Shown here: positions 5,091 to 46,227 of the stretch, in pieces
Position numbering within the stretch: the stretch's first letter is position 1
Layout of the letters: the number at the start of each line of letters is the position of its first letter
DNA from: Heptranchias perlo
Lineage: Eukaryota
DNA: 64,000 bases
Assembly (NCBI RefSeq): GCF_035084215.1
Contig: NC_090337.1
Span: 37,386,001-37,450,000 of the forward strand
Direction: 5' to 3'
Position numbers and translations under genes: made by a program
Notes under the pieces: model-generated
Seen by the model: only the letters and a program-made list of their open reading frames with translations
What the model was told of the DNA's origin: nothing
Database searches by the model: none

Positions 5091-5888
5091 GCCAAAGGCA
5101 GGTATATGGAGTTAGATCACAGATCAGCCATGATCTTATCAAATGGCGGAGCAGGCACGAGGGGCTGAATGGCCTACTCCTGTTCCTATGTTCCATGTGT
5201 CTTAAAAAGAGATCTGGACACAGTACTCAAGGTGCAGTCTGGCCAGAGCACTGTACAGTTCAATCACTACTTCCTCTGACTTATATTCTACTGTTTTTGC
5301 TATGAAGTTCAACATTGCAGTGGTTGTTGGTTGTTCAACATGTCCAATCAACGCAGAGCAGCAATAAGTTTACTTGGTCTCCTTGAGCTTTTTCAACACC
5401 AATCATGGACTATTTGTGTTGCTTATTTTTCCTTCCCATGTGCCGTACTTCACAATGATCTGCGTCAATTTCATCTGCCATTGTTTTGCCCACATATTTA
5501 TTTTGTCCAACTCATTCTATAATTGATAAGCTGCGTCCTCCAATTCCACTGCCCCTCCCAGTTTGGTATCATTCGCAAATTTGACCATTTTGCATCGAGT
5601 TCTTGTACCCAGATCATGTACATAAATTACAAACAGTAATGCCTCAACACCCAGCCCTAGGGCACCCCACTCAACGCTCTTTCTACCTACCCACTCCACC
5701 CACCCCCCCAACTCCCCCCACCCACACACACAATTCTTTTAGTGAGCTCTCATTGTTTTCCCCATCTTTAACCAATTTCTTAACCACTCCCAGAATTTAA
5801 CTAAGAATCCTACAATTTGAGGTGTGCTTGCCGTTTCCTTGTACAATGTACAAATTAAACATTTCAGATTGTTAAAATTTGTCCATAC

Positions 5889-5996
5889 CCTGAACTTGTC
5901 ACTTTGGGTAGAATTTGCCACAAGATGAGTTATTTTGCCAGTATATTCTTTACGAATAGTTGCTCCCATATGATGTGCCAGGGTAACAAGATTAAG
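5889..5996 (-). CDS. ECT2: ECT2 coding exon 6 (BRCT1 region); the gene continues beyond the left edge of the window
   Basis: LNLVTLAHHMGATIRKEYTGKITHLVANSTQSDKFR resembles human ECT2 VRLVTLVHHMGGVIRKDFNSKVTHLVANCTQGEKFR. AG/GT borders, 108 nt, phase 0. Confidence 0.95.
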
Positions 5997-8610: not shown

Positions 8611-8611
8611 A

Positions 8612-16966: not shown

Positions 16967-17813
16967 ATTTTTACTCTGCTTTAGAGTCGCCTCCAGTAAC
17001 AACAGACTAAAGCCAGTGCAAAGTCACCAGGGCTTATTTTTTTTTGGGGAGGGATGCCCGTGACCTCGGGTTTCAATGTTGGGTCCACCATTTAGGATCT
17101 AGGCTAAAGGTCTTCAGAGAAAACGTCAGTCCGACTGAGATCAAAGTGAGGAAAAAACATCGTATATGCTCAGTTGTTTGTTGCTACTCAATCTACCCGG
17201 CAAAAACATTAAGAGGGTATACAAGATTGTCCTTTTAAGTAGCGGGTCACTCGCTTGAGGAAACCCTGGATCAGTCAACTGCCTTAACGCCACAGACACA
17301 TTCCCTACCCCCCACAAAAGTATTTAAGATATTTCTACAGGTGACTGCCCACATCTGCACTTTTCAGTTGGGAGTATTAAACTAGGAACACTGTAATCTG
17401 ACCTGGCTAAACACTCCATCCCAATGATGTAGTACTTATATACAACGAACGATGTTTCATTAACTGTCGCAGTTTTTTTCAATCTACATGAAATTGTACA
17501 TCCAGCATCAGCACAGGTCAGTTTCTCAATGTGTTTAACATGAACACTCCTTATTGTAAATATTTAAGTTACAGTCCGTGCTACAAGATTTACATCACCA
17601 ACAGGAATATTCAGGTAAAATCAGTAGTTGCATTAAAAAGAAATGCAGTTATAAAGATATTTTATTGTTCGAATAACCGGTGTCGTTCACTCGCCTCAAC
17701 CAATGCTGCAGTTTGTCTCTCTAACGGGTACCGGGAGATGGGGGTCGCAGAGTGAATGTTCCGTGACCGCTTTCAGAAGCGTAAACCGGAATCATACTGA
17801 AACACTCCGTTAC

Positions 17814-17943
17814 CTTCAACATGGTCCGATGCGGCCTCGGCGAACAGGAACTCCTTGGAGGAGTCGGCGAGTCTCGAATCGAATGCGGACGAGTCCACCA
17901 GGAGACTCCTGGCGCTGGCGGCCACTGCGGTCCACTCCGCCAT
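17814..17943 (-). CDS. ECT2: ECT2 first coding exon (ATG at 17943)
   Basis: MAEWTAVAASARSLLVDSSAFDSRLADSSKEFLFAEAASDHVE vs human MAENSVLTSTTGRTSLADSSIFDSKVTEISKENLL. Donor G|gtaacg, phase 1. Confidence 0.9.
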
Positions 17944-18034
17944 TGTAACACGGGCTGTGAAGAGCAGCTCCCCGCAAGACAAGGGTAACGGCTCGCTCAC
18001 AATTAAAGCGCCTTCCGATACAGCGAGCACTCAC

Positions 18035-18345
18035 AAACCGCGAGCCCACGGTCAGCGCTTTTTTTTAAAAAAAAGAAAGCCCGATTTAAATTTGGCCCTG
18101 ACGCGGGTTCAAACGGGTTTAGAACCTCGCCTTCCACTGTCCTCAACGGAAAATTCAAAATTCGATCCCCTCTCGTAAGCGCTTATCTGATTGGTCCAAA
18201 CTGATATCCTATTGAAAGTGCGAGCGGCTGCACCTGATTGGTTGTCACCGGGGAAACTAAGGTTCTAGAGTGTGTAATTGATTCTGACGACACCTGAACG
18301 ATGTCCGATGGCTCAGCGAACCATCATCTTGTCCTCGATTGGATA
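18035..18345 (-). promoter_or_regulatory. ECT2 promoter/5'UTR exon with CHR-like and CCAAT elements
   Basis: CpG-rich. Minus-strand TTTGAA at 18108-18113 and 18154-18159. CCAAT (plus ATTGG) at 18190-18194, 18237-18241 and 18338-18342. Candidate 80-nt 5'UTR intron 18034(GTGAGT)..17955(CAG). Confidence 0.65.
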
Positions 18346-18371
18346 AAGGTGATCCTTTGAGGGAGGTTCTG

Positions 18372-19297
18372 CAACAAAAGCAAAATACTGTGGATGCTGG
18401 AAATCTGAAATGAACACACGAAAATGCTGGGCAGCATCTGTGGGGAGGGGGAGGGCAAATCCGAGGACCTTCTGGTGGGTCTGCTCCTGGGCCTGGCCAT
18501 CCACAGGTTGGACGCGGCCCGTGGGGGCAGTCGCTCCGACTGTCTGCCTCTCTTCCGCGGTATGCTCCACGCCCAGGTGGCCCTGGAGAGGGAGCACGCG
18601 GTGTCTGCCAGTACATTTGAGGCTTCCCGTGACCGGTGGGTACCACAGGGGCTGGAGTGCATCCTGGATCGTTATAATAAAATTATTATTTGACTCTGTT
18701 ATTTGGTCTAGGATTTGTTGGAAATAAAACACACCCTAAACCACCACCCCCCCCCCTTATAAAAGGGGGACCTAAAACACAAAAAATATACTGCGGATGC
18801 TGGAAATCTGAAATGAACACATATGCTGGGCAGCATCTGTGGGGAGGGGGAGGGAAAATCCGAGGACCTTCTGTTGGGTCTGCTCCTGGGCCTGTCCATG
18901 GTGGTCATCCACAGGTTGGACGCGTGGGGGTGGTTGCTCTGGCTGCTTGTTTCTCTTCCCCGTCTTGGCCCTGGAGAAGGATGCTTGAGTTCTTCCCCGA
19001 TCAGTGGGCATCGATGTGTAGTGGATAGCGAAAAGAATATTATTATTTAACTTGATGGTTCCTTTCTTTGATATGATTTGGGTGTTTATTGTTTTTGCCC
19101 CTCTAAAAAGGGGGCACTTTTGTTAGATTTCTTTTATTTGCGTTGATGATACAAAGGCATCTGTGGCGTGAGAAACAGAGTTTAACGTGTCAGGTCGATG
19201 ACCTTTCATCAGAACTCTACCTGAAACGTAACTCTGTTTCTCTCTCCACAGATGCTGCCTGACCTGCTGAGTATTGCCAGCATTTTCTGTTTTTATT
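18372..19297 (+). mobile_element. Composite repeat: palindromic Penelope-derived element interrupted by a Tx1/L1-like LINE 3' end, with a tandem duplication
   Basis: Two units (~18372-18775, ~18778-19150), each made of the left arm plus EGKSEDLLVGLLLGL...LEREHAVS...RWVPQGLECI (Tx1-like ORF2 C-terminus). GCATCTGTGG at 18434, 18833 and 19157. Right half of the palindrome at 19157-19297. Confidence 0.7.
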
Positions 19298-21815: not shown

Positions 21816-24800
21816 GCAAGCTTGGCTCCCCGTGTGAGGTGGGTGAGATGTGCTCAGGTAAGGAGGCTAGATTGCGGTCTCCAAAGTGGGGGAAGGGTTA
21901 TTTGGCTAGTCAGTGTCGGGGGGGGGGGGCGATAGTTGTGTTCAGATGAGGTATGTGGGGTCCGATCACCAGAACAGTGGTCAATATGGGAGGGGTTAAT
22001 GCTGGCTGAGGGATAGTTAGCTAGTCGGTATTGCTCAGTGGGCTGGTGGTGTGTAGTCACTGTACTTGTGCTCAGAGAGGGATCGGGGGGTGGTGGTTAG
22101 CACAATATCTCTTCTCAGTGGGAGAAATTCCAATGTGAAATTGGAAAATAGTGATGATAGTTATGCTGTAGCCAGGGTTCAATGCTGGAGGGGAAGTTTG
22201 TGCTCTTTGCTTGTTGGGGGTGGGTGAGGCGGGCATTCAATGTAGTGTTTTGTCCAGTTGTAATATTTATGTTCAGTGGGTGGGATTGATAATAGGTTTA
22301 TGGTTCAATTCTAGAATTTCTGCTAAGTGGGGATTCAGCTGTGAATTGCAGTTAGAATCTACATTCTATCATGATCCGATTTGCTGAGGCAAACATTGCT
22401 ACTTTTTTCCTGCCTAGTGGCAGTTATTCTCTGGTGCAGCACTAAAATAGAGAACTCAGATTTAGCAGTTGAACGAAGTATGGTTCATTTTAGTGACTGG
22501 CTTAGGCGAGGAAGATCAATTAAACCAACCGAAGTTGTTCTGACGATTGCTTTTTCTTCTAATTTAAGGGAAAAGCTGTTAAGAGGCAGGGAAGCGTTGG
22601 TGTCGAAAGGTTCAGAACAATTTAATAAAACAGGCTTTCCACCATCCAATCCTGCCTTGCCAGTTCATGCTCTTTTCCTGGGCCTGCTTTTCTTCCCAAA
22701 CTGACCCACTCTGAGACCTCTTGCCAGGGCCTCCAGCTGCTTTAATAAGAATCTGCTTTGCTCCCTGAGCTATTCCGCTCTGGTTCTCTCCCATTGCTGA
22801 TTCCCACTGCTTTCCTTGAGGCTTCCAACAACTGCTCCCCCCAATTCATCCCATTGGTTCTTGTTATTTTTCTGGGCTTGCTTTCCTCCCTGAACTCATC
22901 CGCTCTTTCCTGTTCCCACAGCTTTCACACACTACCTGGCTGCTTTAATGGTGACCCGTTCTGTTCTCCTGGTCAAGCTTCTTTCTGTACTGCTTGAATT
23001 ACATGTACCTTTTTAAAAAAAAAATTAGCCCTGCTGTATTTTTTTTAAATGACCGTTATACTTTTTATAATGATATCAAATCAGAAGTGTGAATAGAGCA
23101 AAATATATGCAAGTAACTGAAGAGAACTTTAGAAAGGAAGAACTTGCATCTTAAATAAATTTTGTAGATGTAGATAAGTAGTATTAAAATATTGTACCTA
23201 TGAAGCTATGCATTTTTTAATCAATAAGTTATGTATGCTTCCTGTCAGTTATGCAATATATTGCTTCAGTACATTTGCTATTGACAGCAATAGATCAATC
23301 ACTGTTGTATTTAGATTGCAGCAGGATTGCAGTAAATAGAAACCATGGGGGCAATTTTTGTCTATCACCCTGATTTTCAACATGAACAGGGCAGTAGCAG
23401 GACCAATTTTTTTTAAATCGTGCCAAATTTGCACCCTAGGGCTGCCTGATGTAATTTTCGAGCAGCTCAAATATTTGGGAGTATCTGTTCTTTGCAGTTT
23501 AAAATTTTAAAAATATCCCAAATAATATAACTGCTGCTTGGGAACCTTATAAAGTTTTAAATTAGTTCGACTACAGCCAGCTTGAGTCTAAAGCAGTGTC
23601 AAACTATCTCAAGTTGATTGTTATAAGTATACCATTAAAATATGTACAGCAAATAGTAGGAGCTGCCACAATATACTATCACCCAATATTCCTCTCCCTT
23701 GTACCAACATGTACAAAAGATGTGAATGTCCCAGAAGCAGCCTTCTACCTGTAAGCACCCAAACCCACCCGTATTTCCAGGTTTGCCTATATGGGACATG
23801 GGCCAGGATGCCCAGGAAAATCCACTGACAACTGCTTCTCTGACCTGCAACTTTCTGTGCTCACAACATCTGACAACACATCCTCAAACACAGAGATAGG
23901 CATTATCACCGAATATATCGCTTCCTCTTTAGTAGGGGAAAAGCCATGAACAATAGGACTGTTTGATATTGTACTAAAATGTTCTTATCTAATGTTCTAG
24001 ATATAAATACAACTTTTTCTCAATTAAATATCAAAACAATTAAAAATAGCTTTTATTATTTTGCTAAGCTGCCACTCATGACCATGTTCTAAAAGTACAT
24101 GTCGGATACCTGCGAAATATATTTAACAGGAGTTATATTTTGGGATTTTTTGGCCATTTTCCCACAGAAAGGATTTGGAAAAAAGTTAAAGCATTGTGAC
24201 AAGTTTAGAAAATGCTGAGGCAAAAGCTAGTTAAGATGCTAATGAGCTGGCTTTGAAGTTTCCTTTGGCTGTAAATAATAAGCAATTTGTTAGTGTGTCT
24301 CAATCAAAAACCACCTCATATTCATTGTATTAGAGTCTTTATTCTCTTTTTTTTGGCAGTAAATGGAAAGATACAATATTGAATCTGGCAGTGAGACTTT
24401 TTGAAACAGATACTGCACAGGCAAAGATGCAAGGGCTTTCATGGAGACTAAGAGGTCAGAAATGCTGGATGTCATTGTTTAAGTAAGACGACCCACTGGT
24501 GTAGGAAGGTTTGGTGTGTTCTTTATTTTGTGTTAGTACATGAAAATAAATTGTACAGTTTGAATCAAGTGAGTCTGATCATAACTGGTGTACAGTATGT
24601 TTACCTTACTGTTAAAGTGGTTTAATGATTCATATCTGGCCTTATCTCACCAAGTGTTGGTTCGGTCCACGGTCGGCAAGATCAAAGAAGTACACATGCA
24701 AAAGATACGAATATCCAGTTCAGGTCATAAGAGGGTTATGCTAGCCCACAAAGATAGAGGGCAGTGTGAGTCAACTTCTGTAAAAAGAATGACACACAGA

Positions 24801-26989
24801 GCACTTAACAGAAGTGACTGTGGCCTCTGTGCCATCAAAGGCATCACCAGCAGTCCCACAGTTGTAACAAGGACACAGCATTTTCTGTTTATACCAGGAG
24901 TATCCAATTTAATGGAGCTTCTTTCTGCTGCTTTCTTCTGCTGAATTTGATGCAGCAGTTCCATTGGCTAGTTTGTAGTTCTGATTTAAACTCATCAACT
25001 TCAATCATGCATGTCAAGTTACTGCCTGCAAGGATAATCATGCTGAATACACCATTACCTTCACGCTAGAATGGCTGGTACAGTATAGCATAAATTACTA
25101 GAGGTTCTTCCATCAGGATTTATGAATAATAAAATGTTTTGTTTTATCATTAATACAATTGCCCAAGACACAATAATGTTCATTAAAATTTGCAGCCATT
25201 GTATGCTACTGCAACTTGCATTATAGTTTAAATTTGAAATGTAGTTACAATTCAATGTTTACATGACACTTGGTTTCTGCGTCTACTAATTTACAAGATG
25301 ACTTCCATGGGTTAAACATATGTTATGCTCACTAAGGGAGATGAATTGCTTTGGTTGTTACTTCTGAATGAATTTAAAATATTGTGACCGTGATCATGAG
25401 CAAGTCAAGTGGAGCTCACAATTATACTGCAATGATAGAGGAAGAGATTTTTTTTATTTGGTACTTGTGTGAATTATTTGCATCACTAGTGCAACTAATT
25501 AACTTAATGGAATAACAGCAAGCAGGCAGCAACAAAAGATGAATGCAGCTCAAATTTGTTTTTGCACCAGCATGAATCTCCTGTCAGAAAAAAAAACAAA
25601 GTTGCAAGAAAGTAGCTCATCATTTTCTTTTACATGTGTCTCAAAAGTTTTGGGTGAGAGGGACTCCCTATAACATCTGTTCCCAAATCTGTTGATCCAG
25701 CTGATGCCAGTCTTTGACCCAAAGTTGGCAGTTGTGATCAGTTCCAGTGTCAGGTTGCTAGCAATCAAGATATCCAGGAACTGCCAGCCTAATTTGATAT
25801 GCAGTTTTATCGAGCATTAAGCAGTGCCAAAACTATTTAATGTAATGGGCAGGTGCAAAGTGTGTAGAACAGGCCAAATTGGGTAGCCTGTCAGCTCACA
25901 AGATGTACTGTGCCTAAGGCTGAATGGCCCAGTGCATAGCATCTCTACGAATAGCCAAGCACGAATTTGAAACTGAGCCCTCGTCTCCAATTTTTAAGTA
26001 GGAGAAGCAGCTTTGATATGTTTGAGGGAGCAGAAATGCCTGGTCCATCGTTACATTCTCCAAAGTAAAATTCTGACACACTGATTTGATGATCTCAGCA
26101 CTATCCTAGTCTTATGATGTAAAGATTCAGCCTAGACCTGGACCAAGACTGGTCATTTTGCTTCCAATATAGCAACACAGCACAATAATATCCTTTCAGA
26201 TGGTCAGTGTCTGAGATTGCAAAGATGAGAAAGTTTGGCACAAAACACTCAAAACAAGATTCACAGATACTTTCATAAATTTCCATAGGATTCCCTTCAG
26301 TTGTCCTTTTGACCATCAATGAATTTTCCACAGAATTTACAGGCTCAGTTGTCTGGAATTCATCAGTTACTACTAGTGAAAATGCCTTGCTTAAAATCTG
26401 CATTTAGATTTTAAAGCTAAAGCTTGGCATATTAAAGCCTTTTTTGCAGCAATAAGAAACCCTAGTCCAAACACTTGCCCATCAAAAAAGTCTAATTTCT
26501 CCTAATCCTAGGAGAGAAAAAAAAATTACGTGAGGACCGATCAGTTAAAGTGTACTCTCTGAAGCATGTTCAATGAGAAAGACACAGATCAGCTGGTTTT
26601 GAAGTTGTCAGTCCAGCTTTTTAACCTAAAGCAAGGAAAAACTGAAGATAATTATTGAAGTTGGCAAATGAGATTTTCATGTTGAATCTCTCTGTTTTAC
26701 GTCGCAATCCCGTTATTTGAATGCAATATTTTGGTCCTGTTCTTCTTCAATAGGACCACATCTTGCCTGGAGAATTTATTTTCCATATATTTAATGTACA
26801 TGTTTTCCTACTTTTTACAGGTCCGAAGAGGAAAAGATAAAATATTAGGTCACAGATACTTTCATAAAGTATCATTTTAGTGATGAGCATCAAATGAAAA
26901 AGATGAAGAAAACATAATGAGCAAGAGAAGTGTGGGTGACTGATTACTAAGAAGCCACTTAGCAGAAACAAAACAAAATCCTGAAGCAC

Positions 26990-27590
26990 AAAATATATAT
27001 TGTCCCTGGTTTTCCCCATTCTAGAAGATAGCGTGAATGACCGTTAGTCTCCTGTTTAAAAAGTTTTACATATTGTAATGGCACTTTTTTTAAAAAAAAG
27101 CACGATAGAATGATTACACAACGAGAATGGTACACAATATTCCAGATGGTATCTGACCAATCTTTTCACTTAATAGTAGGAAGGTTATTATCATTCTTGA
27201 AGAGGTACAGAGGTGAGCAATGAAGACAATCCTGGCCACCATAAATTTAACATAAGGAAAGGTTAAAAAGTTGGGACTCATTTTCTTTGCAAGAGACACT
27301 TGAAGGTGATTGAACGCAAGTTCAAGTTTATGAAAGGGAACTGACAAAAACAGATGCGGGCAAATTGCACAGTGATGAAGGATTCCAAAACTAGGGACAC
27401 AAATTAAAAATTAGGAAGTTAGGAGCAAGGGAAGTCAGGCAAAGTGTAAGGAGTTAGCAGGGAAGGCCACTGAAGTAAACAATGTAAATTAGATTAAGTA
27501 CATTTCCAACAAAGGACTGGGGTAGATCTGTGAAAAAGGGACAGGCTCATTGGCCCCCAAAGCCTTTTTCTAAAAATGCTTATGCTCTTA
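26990..27590 (+). mobile_element. Highly decayed CR1 3' fragment
   Basis: gaagaggtacagagg...caatcctgg, aaggtgattga, ctagggacacaaattaaaa resemble the CR1 ORF2 C-terminus and 3' end. Confidence 0.45.
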
Positions 27591-28465
27591 ACCTCAACGC
27601 ATGTAGAATTTGAAACTCTTCCTTAGAGGCAAATATATTCAAAGAGCTATCACAAGCCCATTGAGAAGATCAGCAGCAATATATTGTAATAGTGATTGGT
27701 ATTTTATTTCTGATTTACTGAAGGTTGTTAGAAAATTACTTATATCGGCAAAGATTTTCTTTTTTAGTATTGGAGTTAAAACACTATCAACCAGCCATTA
27801 TCTGCTGAAATAAATTTGAGGCACAGAATCCAGTAATCCATCCAGACATTAGTGCTGAATTTATACTGTAGCTATCAGTCTGAGACTAGTAGCTGCAGAA
27901 CTGGTTCCAGTCAAACATTACCTTGCTTATACTGTTTCATATGCTATGCTCCTACCCAGGAGAGTTTTGCACATGTGCCAATGTCTGCTCCCAGCAGTAA
28001 AAATTTAGATGTTTATAGAACACGGGTCCCAACATTTAAATATGCTCCAGGCAAGTTAAAAAGTGCCCAGTGGAACCAACAGATTAATTCCAATTTGCAA
28101 CAGACCCCCGAGTACGTTTCAAAACCAGGTTTGACGATTCACTGGAGTAATATTCCATGTGGTGTTTTGAGAGACTTGTTGCTGGAGCACGATCAAGCTC
28201 TGACTCCAGAGTTACACTGCATTTTTAGTATCATTTTGCAGCAACACTACCGTTACAGTATAAATACACCCCAAGCCCAACTTCAACACAAGCCAGTGTG
28301 ACTTAACATTAATGAGTGATGACCCGACTATACATTTTAGTTAAGAGTTGAAGGTAATAGAAAATTTCGCCAATTTATGCTGTCCAAAAAAAATGCACTA
28401 ACACGTAACTTTCAGATTCTGCAATTGGACAACATATACAGATAGATTCTTTCCCCTTTTTATTA

Positions 28466-29425
28466 CTATGTATTACTATTCCACAGATCATCAGTCTTAC
28501 TTTCTCTCAGTTGATTGATAATTTTGGTGAGATTGTCAATTTTCTGCTCTTTTCTTTTTAGTTTTTGTTGGAGTACTCTGAATTTTTGCCTATGTTCTTC
28601 ATTCTTCTTTCTTTCCCACGCAAGCTTCTTTTCTAGAGTTCTCCTGATTATATCTGGGCAAGGACTCATAAAGTAACTGTGATCCTGAGGAAATGTCATT
28701 CCTGACAAATCCTGATCATCATGAGAAGATAGCACCATCTCAGAGGAACACTGCAGTTCTTCAGAAGCCAGAACTGGAGTGGATAGATGGGTCTCCGTTT
28801 CTGGGATGAGCACTTCTGTAGATATCCAAGTTGTTCCTTCTGATATTGTTACTCTATCAGATATTAGGTCTGCAGATGTTGTAAATAAACATGGCAAAAT
28901 ACTAGTGCTCACTGCAGATACATCCATTGAACCCACGAGCGCAGTGGATGTATCCGATAGTACTTCAGGTCTCGATAATACATTGGCTGTCCAATGGAGG
29001 GCATCTGAACACAGAGCTGCAGCTGAATCTTGAGATTGTTCCTCTGAATGAGTTGTTATTAATCCACTTGAAACTGATTCCATCTTTGCATCTGTTGAGC
29101 ATGTTTGAGGTTGTGCACTGCAGTTAAAGACTGTGAGGACTTCTGAAGACTCTGCTTCAGATTTTAGAGGAACTTCCAATACTTGAGAGAATTCTGCTAA
29201 GTTCAGGACCGCTGCTGCTGCTAGTTGAGCTAGTCGCCCTGTATTAAGAGTCTCTGTAGTTAATGTAGACTGCACATCCGTGATTTTAGTTGGCTCAGCT
29301 GGCTGACTTATTGCTTCATCAACCGAATCAACTTGCAACGGCAAAAGCGACATCTGTACCTCCGAAGTTCCCGTATGGTGTCCAGCAGAAGCTTTTGCCT
29401 TATGTGACCTTCTGGAGCTTGTGGT
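28466..29425 (-). CDS. THAP domain-containing protein exon 3 (low-complexity linker, DHSY HCF-binding motif, coiled coil, stop)
   Basis: tttgcag|ACC acceptor and a 960-nt open frame ending in TAG. QDHSYF followed by RTLEKKLAWERKKNEEHRQKFRVLQQKLKRKEQKIDNLTKIINQLRE. AATAAA at 28464-28459. Confidence 0.9.
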   Translation of the reverse strand, partial: TTSSRRSHKAKASAGHHTGTSEVQMSLLPLQVDSVDEAISQPAEPTKITDVQSTLTTETLNTGRLAQLAAAAVLNLAEFSQVLEVPLKSEAESSEVLTVFNCSAQPQTCSTDAKMESVSSGLITTHSEEQSQDSAAALCSDALHWTANVLSRPEVLSDTSTALVGSMDVSAVSTSILPCLFTTSADLISDRVTISEGTTWISTEVLIPETETHLSTPVLASEELQCSSEMVLSSHDDQDLSGMTFPQDHSYFMSPCPDIIRRTLEKKLAWERKKNEEHRQKFRVLQQKLKRKEQKIDNLTKIINQLRESKTDDLWNSNT

Positions 29426-30135
29426 CTGCAAATTAGTTAAAATTAATGTTTGTATTGTGTTATTTCTAAAAAAAATAATCTAAATACATTTTACACGGCA
29501 TCATAACATCTTTGAGATAATTTAAACTCAATGTGCCCAGTGCTACAAAAAACTTCAGGGGCCATTCAAAATGGTCATTTTCAGTAGTACACAAACAAAA
29601 TCCCATGTCCTCAAACTCAAACCTCAAGTCAAAACATTTACTTGTTTTAAAAATACGTGTAATGTACACTTTAAAAAGAACTAGCGCCCTCAGTCATATT
29701 CTTGACTTCTACAGCCAGTAAAAGCGTACCAATTCAGTATTCCCACAAAAGATACTGCCTGCAATTCTTTTGAGACACCGACAGTTAACAATGGTACACC
29801 AAAGGGATCATGCTTTTGAGGACACCCTCTCAGCAGTTCTTCTAAAACACTGCAAGACTTTGGTAACTATTTAATTCAGTCAATTACAATGTCATCTAAA
29901 GCAATCAGTATTTGGGTTATTTGCTACTTAATGGAGAGGGCTAAAAGTCCTTACAAAAAGTGTACATTGATTACCCCCGCCAATAGACAACTTACATGCC
30001 ATATATAATTGTGAAAACTTATTTGTGGTCACTTGGAGCAAAAATAAATGGGATGCAAAAATGGGTTTTAATCAACAAGTTACCAAAAAATCATTTACTA
30101 AAATAAATGCCGAACACAATAATGATTAAAACTAC

Positions 30136-30325
30136 CTTATTTTTAGGAGGTGGAAATATGGTTGGAACAGAAGAAAATTTTAAATGCCTTCGATCATTCC
30201 GTTCCTCAAAACAATCTTTTGTGAAGTGATCACTACAGAGAGTTGCTCTTGGTGATGGTATCCAGTTTTCCCGTGCTACAGCTTTCAGCCAATTTGCCAT
30301 GAGATCTGGTCTTGAAATTGGAAAT
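30136..30325 (-). CDS. THAP domain-containing protein exon 2
   Basis: FPISRPDLMANWLKAVARENWIPSPRATLCSDHFTKDCFEERNDRRHLKFSSVPTIFPPPKNK carries the THAP P-W-C-H-F-P signature and AVPTIF box. catag|...|gtagt, 190 nt. Confidence 0.93.
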
Positions 30326-32999
30326 CTATGTTGACAGAGCCCAAAATAAAACAGAAGTAGGGATTCAACAAAACTTACTGAAATTGCAAGTATCGTAAAT
30401 AGCTTTTTCAATTTTTAATATTTTTTAAATTTGAGAAGCTGTACCCATTAGTCAACGCATCTGCTCTGCAACTCTGTGCATAATTGTCTGTCAGCAACAG
30501 CCCCATTCCGCCAAGTCGTCTTAAACTCACTTAACATTTAAATGAGTTTGGTCAGTACAATTCTCTTAATAGAAAGGTGGGGTTTAAGTCATAAAAATTG
30601 GACCACCAACCATTAAAGCTCTGCAATTCTTAGGATGTGAAAATAAACAGATACTCAACAATAGGATAAACAAAAACATTAATAGGTTAGAAAATACATA
30701 TTAGTAGGCATGTCAAAAATCCTAAACCTACGTAATACTGGTACAAGACATAACCAATGGCGCTGAATAAGAAAATAACAATTAAAACTGCAATAAACTC
30801 AAAATAAATCTCTCACTCTGCAAGTACCTCCTATGAAAACTGATCGAAATCCCTCCAAACTAAAAACTAAGTCATGCAGATTACTGGATACAAAAGCCTT
30901 CAGGTCATAAATTCATGCAACACTCAAAAGGAAAATCTCAAACACACTTTCAGCTTATCTGGCATATTACAAGTAAAAACATTATAAAATGTCAATCAAA
31001 AAAGAAAAATACTGACCCTAATAAAAACACTTACTTCCTGTTGGTTAAACATTGAATGTAAACATCTACCAACCAAATAAAGCAATCCACACTAAGCAAA
31101 GGCATGACACATTATGGATTTTTCACCAGATGTTGATTTAACACGTCAACCAAAGAAAAAGCAAAACAATCAGAAAAACAATTCCCACAGAAAAATAATA
31201 TTGAAAGTTCTTGTCCTTACACTTGCATAAACAAATGGTGAAAGACTAAAAACTTTTCTTGAAATGACCACAAATTTTTCATGTATTCTGCAACCTCACT
31301 GTCCAAACTCTAACCTCAGATTAACACATCAAAGATAAGTTTGCAGGACTGCTTCACATACACCATGCACACTGCATACCTAAATGGTGTGCCCAAAATT
31401 GGTAAACAAAGAACAATTTCACAACATATCAAAATACAATTTTATACGGTGCAATTGCTACAATTTGGGTTGTATCCCGTCGTTTCTGTTGAGCAGGAAT
31501 AAGAAATATCAAGCAAGCTTGCAATTCTTATAAACTGACATTAGTTTGTACACAAATTACATAGGAAAGCTGGTTTCCAGGCCAGTGTGTCATTTTGTGC
31601 ACTGGAAACAGTATGGGATATCACAATACACTCCTGACTTTTCCAACTGACTGAAAATACCACACTGACAAAATGTGAACAGAAGCAAGGCAGTAGCTTC
31701 GATATACTTAACTTTGTGCGATCCGTTCCAAAACAATAAAAGTTCCTCTTTAGCAGCTTTACATGAGAAATGAACCTACGAGTCCCTCATTAATCCCGAA
31801 ACCCATACAGTGGCATGGGAAACTGGAGAACATCAGTCTGTTTATATCTCACTTTTTCCTTTGATGTCCAGACAGATGCAATGCAAGAGGATCTCGTACA
31901 ATAATAATCAAATTGGAATTACTTCTTGTGAAGAAAAACCATCAAGTCAGTTTCCAACCCCCCACAGACTGCCTCTCGGGCTTCCAGATACAATTTTCAT
32001 ACCACTAGAACAAAGCAAAACTGCATCTATATACTTGACAGGATTGTGTCTTATCAACCTTCCCTAATGCCAACAGAAAATTTCTCCCCGAATGCAGTCA
32101 CAAAAATTGTAGCAATACTGATGCAGCTAAAAATTTTTTTAAAACTAGTAGATCTCCTGTAGCGTTGCCCGTGGCAAGTCAGAGGATTCACTGCTTTATA
32201 ACAATAGGGGTGTTAAGATCATGTAGGGGAAATATCAGGCCCACTGATTTACAGGAATTGAATAAGTAAAATTCCATTTATATTAAGTGGTATTCTGGAA
32301 TCACTTCTTGTGCTTTGGGGGTTGAATTCCATGGCTAGCTATTGTTCTGTGAAAACCCTAAATGAGCAGCCTTTACTATTCCTTCACCTATGTAAATAAT
32401 TTTTTTAAAAACCTTTTATCAGTTTTGAAGCCAAGTATATGGCAAGACAGCATGCAAGATGTATCAGTTGAAATTAGATATCTGGGAGATATAACAAATT
32501 CTACTGCCATAAACAAAAACATTGCTGATACATTTCTTATTTTAGTGTGGGATGGCTCAGGTTCCAAGTCACGCCATTTTCAGAAATTTCTCGGTTTGAG
32601 CTAGTTAAGAAAATATGCTTATGAAACAGTACTAGCAATAGAAACTAACAGGAAAAATGATTAAAGCCATGATGGCCAAAGAGATGTATGCAGACAAACT
32701 TTACCATCCATCTACTGAAAAAGGGAGTGTAGCAGTGTGGATCTGGCAGGATAATGGAATGAAACATTTTTTAAAAAAGAAGCACTTTCCAATATGCCAG
32801 ATTTCAGACCCCATAGTAAAGTGCTTTAGTAAACTTGTTTTAAACTGCAGGAAAAGCTATTAAACAGAATCTCATAATAATGACAAATATAATATATCCA
32901 ATGAGGTTGGTTAACATACACAGCAGCATCACATCTATTTTGGCAATTGCTTTAGAGATAGGCTGTTAAAAGAGAGCAACGAACTTTGCGATTCTCCGA

Positions 33000-33490
33000 G
33001 GTATTCCAATGCTCTCCTGGCTGGCCTCCCATCTTCCAACCTCCATAAATTTGAGCTCATCCAAAACTCTACTAACCCATATCCTAACTCGCACCAAGTG
33101 CTGTTCACCCATCACCCCTGGCTCCCAGAACACCTTGACTTTAAAAGTCTCATGTTTGTTTTCAAATCCCTCCATGGCCTCGCCCCTCCCTATCTGTGTA
33201 ACCTCCTCCAGCCCTACAACCCTCCGCCATCTCTGCGCTCCTCCAATTCTTGCCTCTTGCGCATCCCCGATTTTAATCACTCCACCATTAGCGGCCGTGC
33301 CTTCAGCTGCCTAGGCCCTAAACTCTGGAATCCCCCCCCCCTAAACCCCTCCACCTCTCCTTTAAGACGCTCCTTAAAACCTACCTCTTTGATCAAGCTT
33401 TTGGTCACCTGTCCTAATATCTCGTGGCTGGATATCAAATTTTGTTTGAAAATCGCTCCTGTGAAGGGCCTTAGGTCTTATTTTTACTAC
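33000..33490 (+). mobile_element. L2 LINE 3' fragment
   Basis: FKSLMFVFKSLHGLAPPYLCNLLQPYNPPPSLRSS...GRAFSCLGPKLWN is a typical L2 ORF2 C-terminus. Confidence 0.85.
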
Positions 33491-33705
33491 CTTAAACGCA
33501 AGTTGTACCTGATTAAAATCGCCATCTACCTGCGTCACCGTGACTTACCCGCCTTATACTAAAGAAAACTGCGGTTTTACAAAATTTGCGCACATTTGAG
33601 ATTTTACGGTCGGAAATTTTATCAAAGAGCAATTTTTTTTTAAAGGAAAAGGCCTGGAGAAAAGTTAACCTCACAGCACCAACGAGAATTGGCCTCTCAG
33701 GGTAC

Positions 33706-33776
33706 CTGTGGAAAGTTATGCCGCTGCCTTTCTTGAAGCGGTTCTTACAGTCCAGTGCGCTGCACGAGACTGGCAT
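33706..33776 (-). CDS. THAP domain-containing protein exon 1 (ATG)
   Basis: MPVSCSALDCKNRFKKGSGITFH(R) with CxxxxC. 71-nt exon ending AG|gtacc, phase 2, which joins exon 2 in frame. Total 406 aa. Confidence 0.93.
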
Positions 33777-34484
33777 CTTCCAGGTGCGGGCAGCGCCGGC
33801 CGCGAGCGGGCACCGACTCTCTGCCTGGAAGAAAGATGGCGGCCTGGCGGCGGTGACGTCACTTCGAATTCGGAACCTGGCCTCCCGAATAGATTAGAAC
33901 GCTGGGGAGAAAAAAAAAAGACACGAAACATTCGCATTCCTTAATTCGAGTCAATCCTTCAATGCGCGAAGGTCATAAATATGATCGGCTTTATTTATAT
34001 ATATTTTTTTAAAACCCTTCATTCACCCTTTAAGGAGGAATCAGTACCGCCCTTTCTTTTGTTTTGCAGCCTCCCCTCCCCCCCCCAAACTAGCGGAGCC
34101 CCAAGGATTGTGGTGGCTTTAATTAAACTGCAGTGACATTGTCTCCACAAATAGCACAAACGGATTTAACAAACTTAAATGGTTTTCCGGTGCCCAGGGG
34201 ATTTTTTTTGCGCAGTGCACCCCCTCCCTCCCTCCCTCCCTCTGCGTGGCCATTCTCTTCCGGTAACAACCGCGGCCCGTCATTTCTGAAAGTGAAATGT
34301 TACCAGCGTTAAAAACTACAACTCCCGGCATCCCGCCCTCCCCGCCCGATTGGCCGACTGATAAATCCGCATCGGCCTGATTGCCCCCCCCCCCTGTGCT
34401 GCCGGCGTTAAGTCACTGTCGCGGGGTGAATTGTATCGCTGTGTTTCCAGGAGCGTTTCCATTTTTGCCCCGGATTCCGCAATA
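33777..34484. promoter_or_regulatory. CpG-rich bidirectional promoter between the THAP gene and NCEH1
   Basis: YY1-type AAGATGGCGGC 33833-33843, CRE palindrome TGACGTCA 33854-33861, ETS-like CTTCCGG 34257-34263, ACTACAACTCCCGGCA 34315-34330, ATTGG 34349-34353 and GC boxes. Confidence 0.75.
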
Positions 34485-34622
34485 ATGCGAAAAGTCGTCC
34501 CAGTGATCGTGATCGCTGCCGCTTTGACAGCTTACTATGTGTACATCCCACTGCCGAACACGGTCTCCGAGCCCTGGAAACTGATGCTCCTGGATGCAAC
34601 GTTCAGAGGAGTCCAGGATATG
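34485..34622 (+). CDS. NCEH1: Neutral cholesterol ester hydrolase 1 exon 1 (N-terminal membrane anchor)
   Basis: [46 protein letters not shown]|gt. The [22 protein letters not shown] segment is characteristic of NCEH1. 138 nt. Confidence 0.95.
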
Positions 34623-34954
34623 GTATAATTTCTCCTTTTGTTGACGTTGCTTTCTTTTCAAGTTGCAGAATATTTAAAATTGAATCGTAGAAGTATCATA
34701 ATACGTTGACCTTTTTGCATGTTCGTAGTTTCAAAGGTGTCTCAGACTTGCAAATTATAAAATGGTTCAGTCACTTGTCTTTCTCTGCTGCTTATGTAGC
34801 GTGGCACTATTCATGCATACATCCTTTCGCGTACATCTGTCCTGTTGCAATACTCAAGTAATAAGGTACTCCCAAAGAATGTCACATCAAAAAAAATTCA
34901 CGTCGGATCACCCTGTAGATAATGACGATGAAATGAGGAGTGGCAGGCGGTGAT

Positions 34955-35085
34955 TCCTGAACTGCTAAGATATTCGAAGATACTAGAAATACACAGCAGG
35001 TCCGTCAGTATCTGAAAAGAAAACAGACAAGATTAAAATTTTGGGCGCACCTGCAGTGCATTTCTCATTTTTTTTCTGTTTTTAC
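34955..35085. repeat. Decayed palindromic Penelope-derived element
   Basis: aaatacacagcaggtccgtcagtatctga arm matches the other copies. Confidence 0.45.
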
Positions 35086-35109
35086 CATTTTTAAATATCT
35101 AATAATGTA

Positions 35110-35445
35110 GGAATTTGCACTAATGTAGTACCATATCTCGTCTGCAGGATGACCCAAAGTACTTGATCCCCAAAAAATACTTTGATGTACTGTCATAGAG
35201 ACAAAAGGGGTAGTTAATTTGCTCGGAGCCATATTCTTCAAACAACAAACGAGATGAATGACCTAATTAATCTGTTTTATCTGGTAATGTTGGTTGGGGG
35301 AGAAACATTGACTAGGACACTGGGACAACTTCTTGCTTTTCTTTGAATAGCGCCATGGGATCTTTTATGTCCATCTGAACAGGCCCATGGGGCCTTGATG
35401 TAGTATCTCATGTGAAGACAGTGATAGTATTACACTTAAATGTCA
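35110..35445 (-). mobile_element. DeuSINE (SacSINE1/AmnSINE-like) fragment
   Basis: Reverse complement contains the Deu-domain-like string gatggacataaaagatcccatggcgctattcaaagaaaagcaag...ccaaccaacatt. Confidence 0.65.
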
Positions 35446-38400
35446 GGTGTTGGGTTCAGTATATATTCTCAGGTTTTGCTTGATTTACCTATAGGAGGGG
35501 GCAGGGTGAAACTTTACAGAACCCTTAAGACATGAAATGCATTGAGCGGGTAATAGATTTATATCTTATGCATTGCTAATTACTTCAGTTCAATAGGAGG
35601 CAAAATTTAGTACTATGCATTTGAAAATTTCAGATTTTTTAATGAATTCCTGGTAAAAAATAAACTTTATTTTTAAAATGTGTTTCTGTCTGGAGGGTAC
35701 TAGGCAGTTACTGGCAGACCCTTAACCCAGTTGAACTTTGCGCCATCCAGATCAGCAGGAGCGACCAAACATCTGTGTTTGTACCACATGCTGTCTGGCG
35801 AAGCCAATCAGGCTGTGGATAAACAAATACACACAGCTTTTGTCTGCTTTTTTAGTCTACATTCAAACTGTCAGCCTTGACATAGCAGCAGGACTGCTAC
35901 TCTGTTAGACTTTTTAAACATTTTAAACTTTTATCTGATAGGGTGCTAGTGGTATCGATGTGCAATATCATCAATTCACCATCAGGCAAGCATACAACTT
36001 CTTTAAAGAATCCATTCCTGGAAGCCTTGTAGGATGATTTTATTCTCCACTATACCATCACCTAATAGTCCACCTTTGCATAAATAAAGATGTTCCAAAT
36101 ATAAATTAGTTTTCAGTTTCATGATTTTAGGATTGTATAAACATGATTGCTTCTGACGTCACTTCCCACAGATGATCTGTACCAGACTTGTGCCACAAAA
36201 TAGAGAAACCTTTTTTTTTCTATAAGGGTACACAATCCCTCTACCTCCACCCTAGTTCCCTTTGTTTGCCCCTGGAGTGTTTACTACCTATGGTTGAGAG
36301 AACAGATAAGTGAGCTGCTCCCAGATATTCAGTAATGCCACTGAACTAGCTACAAGGCAGTGCATGGGAGTGGCTCAGGGGCAATTGTATCTCCAATAAT
36401 TTTCTTTTTCATCTTCCTGTGAAAAGGTGCTTGAATTTCATTCCGTGCTTCCTCACAATCATGTAGCTAAGACTAAGAGCTCAAAAATGTTGGGATTAAA
36501 CATGAATCCCACAACACCCATGGCACAGTGTGCTGGAAAGCTGTGGAGATTTTAAAGAGCTGTATTTGGGGAATTTTTGGGCAAGCCTAGTGGCATTATT
36601 TTATCCACTGGCTTAAGTTTGTGTTGCAGCAGTTGCTGCATCTGTTTCAGTGCAAACTTTTACAGTCAGGCTTTCCAATATTAATCTTACTTTGTATTTT
36701 GCTATTATGTATTTTATTCATTTTGTATTCTAAGCTTTAACGCAGCAGGTAATAGTACTCAAAGTGGAACTATGTTGCCCAAGAGAATATAAGTTAGTTG
36801 ACCTGTCAGTAGCAATAAAGCTAAAGTGGGCAATGATAAATATATAATGAGAGGATGAGTGAAAAACCCTGGGAGAAAGAGAGACAAAAGAGGTTAGAGC
36901 GAGGAAGCTAAGGGGAAAGGGAGAGCAGTTGGAGGAGCAGTTTAGTGAAAGAAACTAAACTGTTTAATGTAGATTTGAACAACAGGTTTTAGATAATGGA
37001 GGCATCAAAGTGCAGGGATAAATATCAACAGGTAAAGAAATGCGTGAAAAGATCAGAATGAGGAAGGGAATCCAGTGGACAAACTGTGGAAAATAATAGG
37101 AAAGGGAAAGAAAAATGACACAGTGATTCAACCTAGGATGTCTGTCATAGTTTCTAGCATTTGACTGAAGAGGCCTGGGAGAAGCTTGCCCATTTTTCAG
37201 TAAGGAATGGAACATAAACCAAATGTAGGAGTCTAAGGAGAAAAAAAAATAAAATGAGAGTGGGACAGGAAATATCGAACCTGAACCTCGTGACAGTAAG
37301 AATAAAAAATTTAAGAAGCACTTGTAACCCAGTTCCTACCCACAACTAAGAACACAGTGAACCTTACACATATTATCAGGCATTGTTTGTTATTTAAAAT
37401 GCTTTTCAAATCCGTTGTTGTGGGATATGTTTGGCACTTTCCCCTCTGATTTAAAAAAAAACTCCCAGGTGACAATTTGTATATGAACAGATGCTCCACT
37501 CCTAATAAGTCCCAGGCTTCTGTCTCAGAAATATTCTGCAGCTGTTAGATATGTGAGAATGGCCTGGGCTACTTCATCCTTCTACCACCACCAACTCTAT
37601 GGGAAAGTGCCGCCTATCCCAATGAATGCAAACTCTGCATATGAAGAATTGTGGCACAATCTAACATACATTGAGACTTTTTATCAAAGACAGTTTTTGG
37701 TGTGTTGAAAGCAAGATTTTGGTGTGTTGGAAAATGATATTAATTTGGACAAAACATAAGTAACCTGTTATTAAAATAGCTCAGGTCTCAAATGTTCTGT
37801 AGTGGGTGAGTTTTCGTAGTCATCTCATTATCCACCCACCTGAAACCCACCAGGAGTTAAAATTAGGACCCTTGTTGCAGTTTGTGCATATTTTGACAGT
37901 TGATACAAAGTGAAAGTCTTTCTTGGGTCTGATGAGTCAACATAGTAATTCTACTATAGGTAGTTTATACTGTGTCTGTAGATATCTACATTAGATATTG
38001 CAGGTTGAAAAATACTAAAATAGTTGGAAATTATTCATTGATAGAGCAGGCTGAAGCAAACTGCTAATGATGACAACAGAAACTGATTAGGTGTACTGAG
38101 CAGAGACAACACATGGAGTGATAGGAAGTTCTGCTTATTTTAACAAGAATGGCCTGTGTGTGTTCTAATTTCCGAAAGGGGTATGTAATACATTGACATT
38201 AATATTACAGTAATAAAGCTGCTCAGATGTTTGGAGCAGCTTTACTTTTGTGGTACTAGTCAATCTCCCTTGGCATTGCACACAGCGAATCAAGACCAAG
38301 TATAGTCTTCAGGAAAAGCAGGATTAAAGAGTGGAGGATAATTGAACAGAACACATGATCTAATTCAGTCCCCATTTTAAAATCTTACATTCTGTTCTTT

Positions 38401-44344: not shown

Positions 44345-46227
44345 ACCCTTATGCATTCCCTTTGTGCTCACAAAACCTTCGCCTTGCGTTTCCGGGAACC
44401 CCTACGTGGTGCTACCCCGTGGCTTCAGCAGAGGTAGTGGCAGGTTGCTTTTGTCCATGCCCTGACCGATGAGATGCTTTGGGCCGACGCCCTCTGGGTT
44501 TGGGTGCCCGTGAGGGCCCCTTCAAAGACTGTGCCACCTGCACCTGTGCAGGGGCAGACTTGGCCACTTGGAGAGGGGACAGCATTGCGGGTACTGGTTG
44601 AGAGGGGGGCAACAGATGAGACATGGGAGCGCTTTGAGTGGCGTCCCCACTTCCATGTCCCCTTTCACCATCATCCCTCTCGTGGCCCAGGCCCACTTCA
44701 CTCCTTCCACCCTGCTGGATGGCAGTTTGGAGGACTTGTGTGAGGCCTTGGAAGGCCAGTTGTAAAGTATCTGTCAGCCTGTTCAAGGCAGCAGAATGTT
44801 GCTCACCCTGAATCCGAATGGCCGTTATCAGGGCCTGAATGGACTCATTGTTGAGCTCGAGGGAGGCTAGCCTTTCCTCCACCGCAGACATTCCTGCACC
44901 TACCCGCGACACTATCTCAGAGATGCCTTCATGTCCCTGCGACACTATCTCGGAGATACCCTCCTGTACCTGTGCCACCATTCCCCTCATGCAGGAGTTG
45001 GACTCCTCCATCCTCTGCGCGATTGTGGAGATTGCACGTGGCACCTGTTCCAGCACCTCGGCAATGTGCTGCTGCCCCTCGATGACTCTGCTTTTCATGG
45101 CTGGCCCCCAGGGTTCAGCATCTGGGTCCAGCTGAGCAGAGCCTGGAGAAGAGTGCTCCCACCGACGCGGACTCTCCACGGCTGCCCCTGCCACCAGGGT
45201 CTGCTCGTGCTCACATGTGCGTGGTGACTCACCATGTGCAAGCCCAACTAAGTGAGGACGGGGACCCACCGAGGTGTATGTATCTGCGCTGGTGGATGGC
45301 TGGCTCAGATGTGACGATGGACCCTCAGAGACCGGCAGGTCCTCTGAGGAATTGCCCTCCACGGTCACGGCGCTCACAGATGGCCCTGCAAGAGAACAGA
45401 AAGCAATATTAGTCATGTGGACAGATGTTGAGGTGTTGCAGATGCCAAGTGATGCTAAGATCATTCGCTATCATGAGTGCTGAGTGTTAGCTGTCACTGG
45501 CCGTTTGTGCAGCCCCAGCCTCGGCATCCGCCACGGACAGGCACTCCAGCGTGCGGCTGATGTCCAATGCCTGCTGCTCCGCGTCCATTAGGACCACCTG
45601 GTGTGACAGGCCCCCTCCGGTCCATGCCCTCTCCCGGGTGTTCTGGCATCTCTTCTTCTATCAAGGCAAAACACAGAGGCGTGATTGAGTGATGCTTGCA
45701 TGGTGAGACGCTGCATGCATTGGTGTGGGTGGGGTTGAGCATGAGGGAGATGCATGAGAGGGTGCGTGTGCAACATAGCTATGATATTGTATGAGGATTG
45801 GGTTGCGTGGTAGTGTTCGAATGGGGACGGTGGGGGGGGGGTGAGTACGTGCAGGCAAGGTGAGGATGATAGTTGAGTGGATGTGAGGAGTGATGCGAGA
45901 GCGTTGTGGTGGCAGTGCAAAAGGGGTTGTGTGGTGGTGGAGGTGATGTGGAAGACGGTGTGTGGGAGAATGCGTAAGTATACTCACTTTGCCTAACCTG
46001 GTTAGATCATTAAATCTCTTCTGGCACTGGACCCAGGTTCGTGCCACATTGCTGTAGCTGGTGACCTCCTCGGCCACCTCCAGCTAGGCCTTCTTCGTGG
46101 TGGAGGGAGGGCACTTCCTCCCATCAGACGGGAAAAATATTTCCCTCCTCCTCCTCACCCCATCCAGCAGCAGCTGGAGTGAGGAGTCTGAAAATCTTGG
46201 GGCAGCCTTCCCTCTGGCGTGCTCCAT
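44345..46227 (-). pseudogene. Harbinger Myb/SANT-like DNA-binding gene (3 exons), disabled
   Basis: Exon 1, 46227-45988: MEHARGKAAPRFSDSSLQLLLDGVRRRREIFFP...KKA*LEVAEEVTS...RTWVQCQKRFNDL|gtgagt, with in-frame TAG at 46086-46084. Exon 2 from 45657: KKRCQNTRERAWTGG. Long coiled-coil exon 3 lies within ORF 44412-45464. Confidence 0.8.

What the first reader, a model, noticed from the sequence alone, without database searches (positions are those of the whole stretch)
28466..33776. Intact THAP-HBM-coiled-coil gene occupying the ECT2-NCEH1 interval
Seen: three exons with canonical splice sites give an uninterrupted 406-aa protein with a C2CH THAP domain, a ~260-aa Ser/Thr/acidic linker, DHSY and a basic coiled coil. 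Known: in human, NCEH1 and ECT2 are head-to-head neighbours and I know of no THAP gene between them. THAP domains are shared with P-element transposases, D/E-H-x-Y binds HCF-1, and the 71-nt first coding exon resembles THAP1-type genes. Inference: this is a lineage-restricted or ancestral-but-lost THAP transcription factor that I cannot assign to THAP1-12.
Basis: partly seen in the sequence, partly recalled or inferred. Interest (0 to 1): 0.7.

Follow-up and report, generated by a model that had tools for sequence, protein, structure and literature searches.

The report
Ancient extra THAP gene of sharks
This is an intact, spliced shark gene for a THAP-family DNA-binding regulator that databases mislabel as THAP5-like; it is a separate old family member shared by sharks, rays, chimaera and coelacanth, likely lost in mammals, and predicted to work as a paired gene regulator like its human cousins.

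Summary
Three exons (71/190/960 nt) give a 406-aa protein identical to the RefSeq Heptranchias perlo model 'THAP5-like X1'. Both introns are skipped exactly in transcript-like contigs, and coding change against a related species is mostly silent (pN/pS 0.19). It is not THAP5 or THAP4: both lie elsewhere in this genome, beside a DnaJ gene and with nitrobindin exons. Close counterparts occur in sharks, rays, skates, chimaera and coelacanth (72% identical THAP domain, same DHSY-coil tail) and form their own branch (support 99/96). An exhaustive profile search showed no such counterpart in other bony vertebrates. So the gene is best read as an old jawed-vertebrate THAP paralog lost in most bony lineages, not a shark novelty. 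It likely works like THAP1/7/11: zinc finger on DNA, coiled-coil homodimer (model 0.52 vs control 0.00), HCF-1 recruited through DHSY (untested; THAP5's motif fails). Open points: THAP6/7/9 were not in the tree, coelacanth synteny is untested, and its sister paralog is unresolved. This scan already noted the same gene in another genome (e1-9590266). New member of a known family; modest interest.

The parts
33706..33776 (-). Coding exon 1 (71 nt; Met1 to Arg24, holds C5 and C10 of the zinc finger); transcript contigs reach 33901-34106 upstream
30136..30325 (-). Coding exon 2 (190 nt; rest of the THAP domain: W36, C54, H57, VPTIF box)
28466..29425 (-). Coding part of exon 3 (960 nt; linker, DHSY, coiled coil, stop)
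29189..29251 (-). Conserved helix in the linker (residues 146-166); candidate partner-docking site, inferred
   Evidence: 20-21 of 21 identical in 9 sharks and rays, 16 of 21 in chimaera, 6 of 21 in coelacanth; helix 150-161 at low pLDDT
28673..28684 (-). DHSY, HCF-1-binding-motif consensus (residues 335-338)
   Evidence: DH-S/N-Y in all 12 rows of alignment A3
28490..28657 (-). Basic coiled coil (residues 344-399), predicted parallel homodimer
24154..28465 (-). 3' untranslated region, about 4.3 kb, continuous with exon 3 in contigs of 3 of 4 runs
   Evidence: table 8
30445..30759 (-). Alternative first exon (119-nt intron to exon 2); gives RefSeq isoform X2, which lacks C5 and C10
   Evidence: 1 of 4 runs; P0001
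33501..34500 (.). CpG island, likely shared head-to-head promoter with the NCEH1-type gene (ATGs at 33776 and 34485, 709 bp apart); M4 motif at 34315-34327
34485..34622 (+). First coding exon of the neighbouring Abhydrolase_3 gene (NCEH1 by recall); later exons near 51277-51621 and 54856-55470
5877..5996 (-). ECT2 BRCT exon (left neighbour; likely promoter CpG island at 17501-18500)

Best explanation
This is an intact, spliced, single-copy THAP-family gene that forms its own branch with counterparts in sharks, rays, chimaera and coelacanth, was likely lost in most other bony vertebrates, and is predicted to act as a paired DNA-binding regulator that likely recruits the co-regulator HCF-1. Shown: gene structure, splicing, purifying selection, distinctness from this genome's THAP1/2/3/4/5/8. 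Inferred from THAP1/7/11: the C2CH finger binds promoter DNA through its beta-sheet and a basic loop; two chains zip together through the 344-399 coil so that two fingers on long flexible linkers read paired sites; DHSY, 5 residues before the coil, docks on the HCF-1 Kelch domain. Inferred history: it arose by duplication within the three-exon THAP1/2/3/5/8 group before cartilaginous and bony fish split, and was lost at least twice (ray-finned fish; lungfish plus tetrapods).
For: Splicing. Selection: 26 coding differences to run X5, 16 silent and 10 replacing, pN/pS 0.19, binomial p 4e-5; 0 replacing against 7 silent in exon-2 THAP plus HBM/coil. Counterparts: 14 clusters, all cartilaginous fish where named (13 named), plus coelacanth XP_064418129.1: THAP 59/82, HBM-coil 39/61 identical. 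A profile built without the coelacanth scores it 147 bits on THAP (next 96.5) and 88 on the tail (next 33). Tree: clade of 7 rows at 99/96; joining it to THAP5 alone is rejected, p-AU 5e-5. True THAP5 is head-to-head with a DnaJ gene on C21; true THAP4 has nitrobindin exons on C13 at 66.35 Mb. Shark-mammal THAP1 and THAP3 orthologs share 61/81 and 61/82 residues; this gene shares 38/81 and 35/81 with them. Same intron phases and near-equal exon sizes as shark THAP1/2/3/5/8: exon 1 71 nt as in THAP1 and THAP2, exon 2 190 against 193-202. Homodimer model 0.52 against best of 3 controls 0.00, runs agree in at least 84% of contacts, pLDDT at least 78; the mark was reached by 21 of 30 solved microbial pairs and 0 of 23 single chains, but by only 7 of 16 animal pairs, and the THAP11 coil is solved (PMC6402169), so the pass may be from memory. 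HBM lies 1-13 residues before the coil in human THAPs, and THAP7/11 bind HCF-1 through it (10.1101/813352).
Against: No binding, localisation or target was tested. THAP5 has the motif yet failed HCF-1 co-IP. Absence in other bony vertebrates rests on protein searches only: 150 of 5216 profile hits were listed, 20 of the 147 outside the clade were looked up by name, and the word-seeded search from the coelacanth domain scored only 17 candidates. Coelacanth and chimaera synteny were not testable. THAP6, 7 and 9 were not in the tree and not located in this genome. The tree has 83 columns; sister grouping with THAP1, 2, 3, 4, 5+8, the frog proteins or the teleost proteins is not rejected (p-AU 0.11-0.30). 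The AlphaFold model did not fold the THAP domain (pLDDT about 40). The pN/pS uses 27 listed of 33 counted differences from one run and does not cover exon 1.
Confidence: 0.78

Rival explanations
1. The gene was not lost everywhere but transformed: the teleost THAP-ARL14EP fusion or the frog proteins with two or three THAP domains plus DHTY and coil descend from it.
For: Both rank just below the clade in the profile search. The 3 teleost domains tested score best against this clade (250, 220, 238 for coelacanth against 218, 204, 214 for shark THAP1). FastTree joins teleost and this clade at 82, together with an unnamed row. AU tests do not reject either grouping (p 0.15, 0.19).
Against: They were picked by a profile of this clade, which biases the ranking. 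Identity is paralog-level (38/81 and 35/81). In own-genome searches the teleost domain hits THAP1 and THAP3 first and the frog protein hits THAP4 first. Neither is among the 22 best tail scores of 163 proteins. The careful tree leaves both unattached.
Confidence: 0.1
2. It is the divergent, relocated ortholog of a named human THAP that I could not place (THAP6 or THAP7), so it is not a new paralog.
For: No THAP6-, 7- or 9-like gene was recognised among 19 THAP matches in this genome (recognition by recall). No THAP exon in 50 kb beside the zf-CHY (RCHY1-like) exon, where human THAP6 lies by recall. THAP6 and THAP7 also have HBM and coil.
Against: A true ortholog should outscore paralogs as the coelacanth protein does; nothing outside the clade passes 100 bits on the THAP profile, and the mammalian hits named were THAP1 and THAP3. 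Coil position differs: 148-193 in THAP6 and 237-281 in THAP7 (PMC6402169) against 344-399 here. Genome searches are lower bounds.
Confidence: 0.07
3. It is an independent domestication of the front end (THAP, motif, coil) of a P-element-like transposase rather than a duplicate of a host THAP gene.
For: THAP domains derive from P-element transposases (PMC13631171). Many top profile hits share the THAP-DHxY-coil layout, and those named include insects and a scorpion. No sister paralog is resolved.
Against: Intron positions and phases match THAP1/2/3/5/8. Single copy. No convincing terminal inverted repeats: the longest arms within 22000-36000 are 27 nt or less and 70-89% complementary. No transposase domain in Pfam.
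Confidence: 0.05

Closest known systems
Human THAP1 (PDB 2JTG, 2KO0; Pfam PF05485)
   Same: Best solved match (E 2.6e-24). C2CH finger, 71-nt first coding exon as in shark THAP1, HBM followed by coiled coil.
   Different: Shark THAP1 is a separate gene on C1. Linker is about 250 aa, protein 406 against about 211 aa. THAP1's six specificity residues Q3, K24, Y50, S51, S52, R65 (PMC2879526) read V, R, R, A, T, E here; shark THAP1 itself keeps only 1 of the 6, so this hints at, but does not show, another DNA target.
THAP5 (source of the RefSeq name 'THAP5-like'; nearest ESM Atlas clusters)
   Same: Overall layout: long linker, late coil (331-372 in human THAP5), three coding exons.
   Different: True THAP5 is on C21 head-to-head with a DnaJ gene (the human THAP5-DNAJB9 pairing is recalled). 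THAP identity 33/82; grouping with THAP5 alone rejected, p-AU 5e-5.
THAP4 (source of the names 'THAP4-like' in coelacanth and stingray)
   Same: Long linker and coil at a similar position (362-398 in human); same contig C13; THAP identity 40/82.
   Different: True THAP4 lies 29 Mb away with nitrobindin (PF08768) exons and keeps THAP and linker in one long exon. This gene has no nitrobindin domain.
THAP7 and THAP11 (functional models)
   Same: Homodimer formation and HBM-Kelch binding to HCF-1 shown there (10.1101/813352).
   Different: THAP domain only 23/73 identical to the shark THAP11-like gene (label recalled). THAP7 was not compared.

Membership tests
THAP-domain proteins (PF05485) | N-terminal 80-90 aa C2CH zinc module with W and AVPTIF box | tested here: met
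THAP-domain proteins (PF05485) | Zinc-dependent sequence-specific DNA binding | not testable with these tools
   inferred from conserved ligands and basic loop residues R66, R69, R70 in shark, skate, chimaera, coelacanth
THAP-HBM-coil transcription factors (THAP1/2/3/5/6/7/11 layout) | D/E-H-x-Y motif 1-13 aa before a coiled coil | tested here: met
   DHSY 335-338, helix from 344; definition
THAP-HBM-coil transcription factors (THAP1/2/3/5/6/7/11 layout) | Coiled-coil homodimer | tested here: inconclusive
   model passes (0.52 against 0.00) but may echo the solved THAP11 coil
THAP-HBM-coil transcription factors (THAP1/2/3/5/6/7/11 layout) | HCF-1 binding through the motif | not testable with these tools
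   motif does not guarantee binding: THAP5
THAP5 orthologs | One-to-one orthology and position beside DNAJB9 | tested here: not met
THAP4 orthologs | C-terminal nitrobindin domain; branch with THAP4 | tested here: not met
THAP1, THAP2, THAP3, THAP8 orthologs | One-to-one orthology | tested here: not met
   each has its own gene in this genome; THAP1 and THAP3 named through; THAP2 and THAP8 labels are recalled
THAP6, THAP7 orthologs | One-to-one orthology | tested here: inconclusive
   no reference sequences from the tools; not located in the genome
P-element transposase / THAP9 | Catalytic transposase domain and terminal inverted repeats | tested here: not met
   only THAP in Pfam; no convincing inverted repeats

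The most novel reading that the evidence does not exclude
A thirteenth ancestral jawed-vertebrate THAP factor with its own DNA target and a conserved co-repressor helix in its linker, whose zinc finger was not simply lost in ray-finned fish but reused as the N-terminus of the teleost THAP-ARL14EP fusion protein.
Probability: 0.08. Interest if true: 0.55.

Novelty: new member of a known kind. Interest (0 to 1): 0.32.

Why it matters
It adds one slot to the ancestral jawed-vertebrate THAP set and corrects names: the same gene is called THAP5-like, THAP4-like ('peroxynitrite isomerase', an activity it has no domain for) or uncharacterized in different species. A regulator whose two working ends stayed 64-72% identical between shark and coelacanth yet seems gone from mammals is a clean case for asking which targets passed to THAP1 or THAP3. 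It is a familiar pattern (old paralogs kept by sharks and coelacanth) with a familiar mechanism, so it changes annotation more than biology.

Tried and rejected
AlphaFold model of the whole protein: only the coil is confident, so no fold search was run. Open-frame enumeration of splice sites: too many combinations stay open to be evidence. No run was on record as RNA; the evidence used is the exact intron skipping in contigs. Difference lists of X9, X13 and X17 were cut (79 rows not shown), so only X5 went into pN/pS. IQ-TREE with the mixture model on 176 domains did not finish; FastTree on all 176 and LG+G4 on 45 and 24 chosen rows were used instead; the other rows were left out for time. TNFSF10 beside the NCEH1-type gene: no TNF match near C13:37.45 Mb among 24 matches of 34 candidates, so that support for the name NCEH1 was not obtained. 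Tnp_P_element search found nothing and rang in no control: uninformative. ESM Atlas returned only generic THAP5-like and THAP2/8 clusters. The M4 promoter motif is not above chance in the window (2 found, 0.57 expected, 10 of 100 shuffles as high). The linker helix does not pick out the coelacanth protein in a leave-one-out profile (0.6 bits), so its conservation beyond cartilaginous fish is weak. Literature: ten searches found no paper on this gene; the supplements of PMC10416458 hold neither LOC103173673 nor LOC106704418. Supplements of other papers were not seen.
Full report
Observation. On the minus strand, 33776-33706, 30325-30136 and 29425-28466 join through GT-AG introns to a 406-aa frame, identical to RefSeq XP_067851435.1, 'THAP domain-containing protein 5-like isoform X1' of Heptranchias perlo. 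Many other splice choices also stay open, so I tested with contigs of public runs. Intron 2 is skipped in 4 of 4 runs and intron 1 in 3 of 4; the fourth uses an alternative first exon at 30445-30759; the 3' untranslated part runs to about 24154 (one sample; the tool only guesses that these are RNA). Four runs from up to four other studies, of three related organisms, also cover exons 2 and 3 without the intron (3 of 4 with the joint at the same place), and all 4 run on into letters that match exon 1 at 33708-33737 (compared by eye).

Anatomy. Pfam finds only THAP, residues 5-81. C5, C10, C54, H57, W36 and VPTIF are in place; the linker is 28% Ser+Thr; DHSY is at 335-338. The best solved match is human THAP1. 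The AlphaFold model is confident only for the helix 344-399. A homodimer model of residues 330-400 scores 0.52 against 0.00 for the best of 3 controls, as a parallel in-register coil with at least 84% agreement and pLDDT at least 78; the mark was reached by 21 of 30 solved microbial pairs, 0 of 23 single chains and 7 of 16 animal pairs, and a THAP11 coil structure exists (PMC6402169, passages), so this shows likeness more than binding. The tail search finds one copy in the genome, 1 of 15 candidates.

Neighbourhood. ECT2 lies to the left on the same strand (PDB 4N40), with a CpG island at 17.5-18.5 kb. An Abhydrolase_3 gene starts at 34485 on the other strand, 709 bp from the THAP start codon within one CpG island. 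Its name NCEH1 is recalled; a check for a neighbouring TNF gene did not confirm it. Two papers list ECT2 and NCEH1 together at human 3q26.31 and name no THAP gene in those lists (PMC11577113, PMC8592943, one passage each); that they are immediate head-to-head neighbours in human is recalled.

Selection. Against run X5, 26 coding differences split into 16 silent and 10 replacing, pN/pS 0.19 (binomial p 4e-5). All 10 replacing changes are in the linker; exon-2 THAP and the HBM-coil have 7 silent and none replacing. This uses 27 listed of 33 counted differences. At protein level the THAP domain is 75-79/82 identical in nine sharks and rays, 67/82 in chimaera, 59/82 in coelacanth; the HBM-coil 54-59, 51 and 39 of 61.

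Distribution. The exon-3 search gave 14 clusters, the 13 named ones all cartilaginous fish. The full-length search added a coelacanth cluster whose member XP_064418129.1 aligns from end to end, 162/413. A profile without the coelacanth scores it 147 bits on THAP (next 96.5) and 88 on the tail (next 33). HMMER over 1.84 billion cluster representatives gave 5216 hits; of the 150 listed, 3 belong to the clade and none of the other 147 passes 100 bits on THAP or 38 on the tail. Twenty of the 147 were looked up: they include rodent THAP1, sloth THAP3, lungfish THAP4-like, four frog multi-THAP proteins, a medaka THAP-ARL14EP fusion, arthropod proteins and four unnamed clusters. A search from the coelacanth domain found 9 cartilaginous-fish proteins and a catfish THAP3 among only 17 candidates. 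Loss in ray-finned fish, lungfish and tetrapods is therefore inferred from absence in protein sets, not from genomes.

Which THAP is it. The genome holds separate THAP1 (C1), THAP2 (C2), THAP3 (C35), THAP4 (C13, 66.37 Mb), THAP5 (C21) and THAP8 (C44) genes, plus THAP10-, 11- and 12-like loci. THAP1 and THAP3 are named by grouping with named mammalian proteins, THAP4 by its nitrobindin exons, THAP5 by its head-to-head DnaJ gene (human pairing recalled); the other labels are recalled. This gene shares 31-40 of about 82 THAP residues with those six, while shark-mammal orthologs share 61. IQ-TREE on 45 chosen domains gives the shark-chimaera-coelacanth clade 99/96. Joining it to THAP5 alone is rejected (p-AU 5e-5); joining it to THAP1, 2, 3, 4, 5+8, frog or teleost groups is not (0.11-0.30), so the sister is unresolved. 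Exon 1 of 71 nt and exon 2 of 190 nt match the pattern of shark THAP1/2/3/5/8 (71-83 and 193-202 nt, same phases), which favours duplication of a host gene over fresh domestication. THAP6, 7 and 9 could not be included, and no THAP exon was found in 50 kb beside the RCHY1-like exon.

Mechanism. By analogy with THAP1, 7 and 11 (PMC13631171, sections 3, 14 and 29; 10.1101/813352, passages) the finger would bind promoter DNA, the coil would pair two chains, and DHSY would dock HCF-1. I put DNA-binding dimer at about 0.9 and HCF-1 recruitment at about 0.7, since THAP5 has the motif and failed co-IP. The six THAP1 specificity residues (PMC2879526, passages) differ here, and V3, R24 and A51 are the same in shark, skate, chimaera and coelacanth; a distinct target is likely but shark THAP1 also differs from human at 5 of 6. 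Isoform X2 lacks C5 and C10 and would keep motif and coil without a working finger; whether it is made as protein is unknown.

Novelty. The gene is annotated, under three misleading or empty names. Ten literature searches found no paper on it; PMC10027918 (passages) and PMC10416458 (passages and supplements) do not name it; PMC5006282 was seen only as a search listing. Verdict: real, conserved, a new member of a known family, interest 0.32.

Noticed in passing
window 30445-30759: Alternative first exon seen in 1 of 4 runs and in RefSeq isoform X2; its product lacks two zinc ligands but keeps DHSY and the coil, so it could pair with and dampen the full-length form (speculation).
   Followed up: partly
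window 34315-34327: M4 motif (described as a THAP11 site in the PMC5006282 abstract) in the shared promoter; not above chance in the window.
   Followed up: partly
window 29189-29251: Near-invariant alanine/leucine helix inside the linker in cartilaginous fish; resembles Sin3-interaction helices by recall only.
   Followed up: partly
L008 (G000:C11:5.46 Mb) and L043/L048 (G000:C6:5.185-5.203 Mb): Two THAP12-like loci (label recalled): one with introns on C6, one intronless on C11 whose frame runs into LINE-like sequence, probably a processed copy.
   Followed up: no
L010 (G000:C18) and L012 (G000:C5): Two THAP11-like domains that group at 100/100; the C5 gene may be a second THAP11 paralog.
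   Followed up: no
L045 (G000:C41:14.878 Mb), L044, L046: Divergent THAP-like frames, one with a Cys/His-rich insert and a C-terminal coil; L045 may be the kind of gene in scan note e1-8645863.
   Followed up: no
P0049, P0050, P0088 (teleosts): ARL14EP proteins with an N-terminal THAP domain in medaka and other fish; no paper on the fusion among the 10 listed.
   Followed up: partly
P0037, P0038, P0042, P0044 (frogs): Frog proteins with two or three tandem THAP domains and a tail coil, three of the four with DHTY, against the rule of one THAP domain per protein stated in PMC13631171.
   Followed up: partly
window 32915-33450, 44415-45467 and 1160-12730: High-copy repeat inside intron 1 (very deep contig cover); transposon-like frames inside the NCEH1-type gene and LINE fragments inside ECT2 introns (class judged by eye).
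   Followed up: no
L036 region, G000:C1:195.242-195.292 Mb: No THAP exon in 50 kb on the 5' side of the RCHY1-like exon; THAP6 may be absent or elsewhere in this shark.
   Followed up: partly
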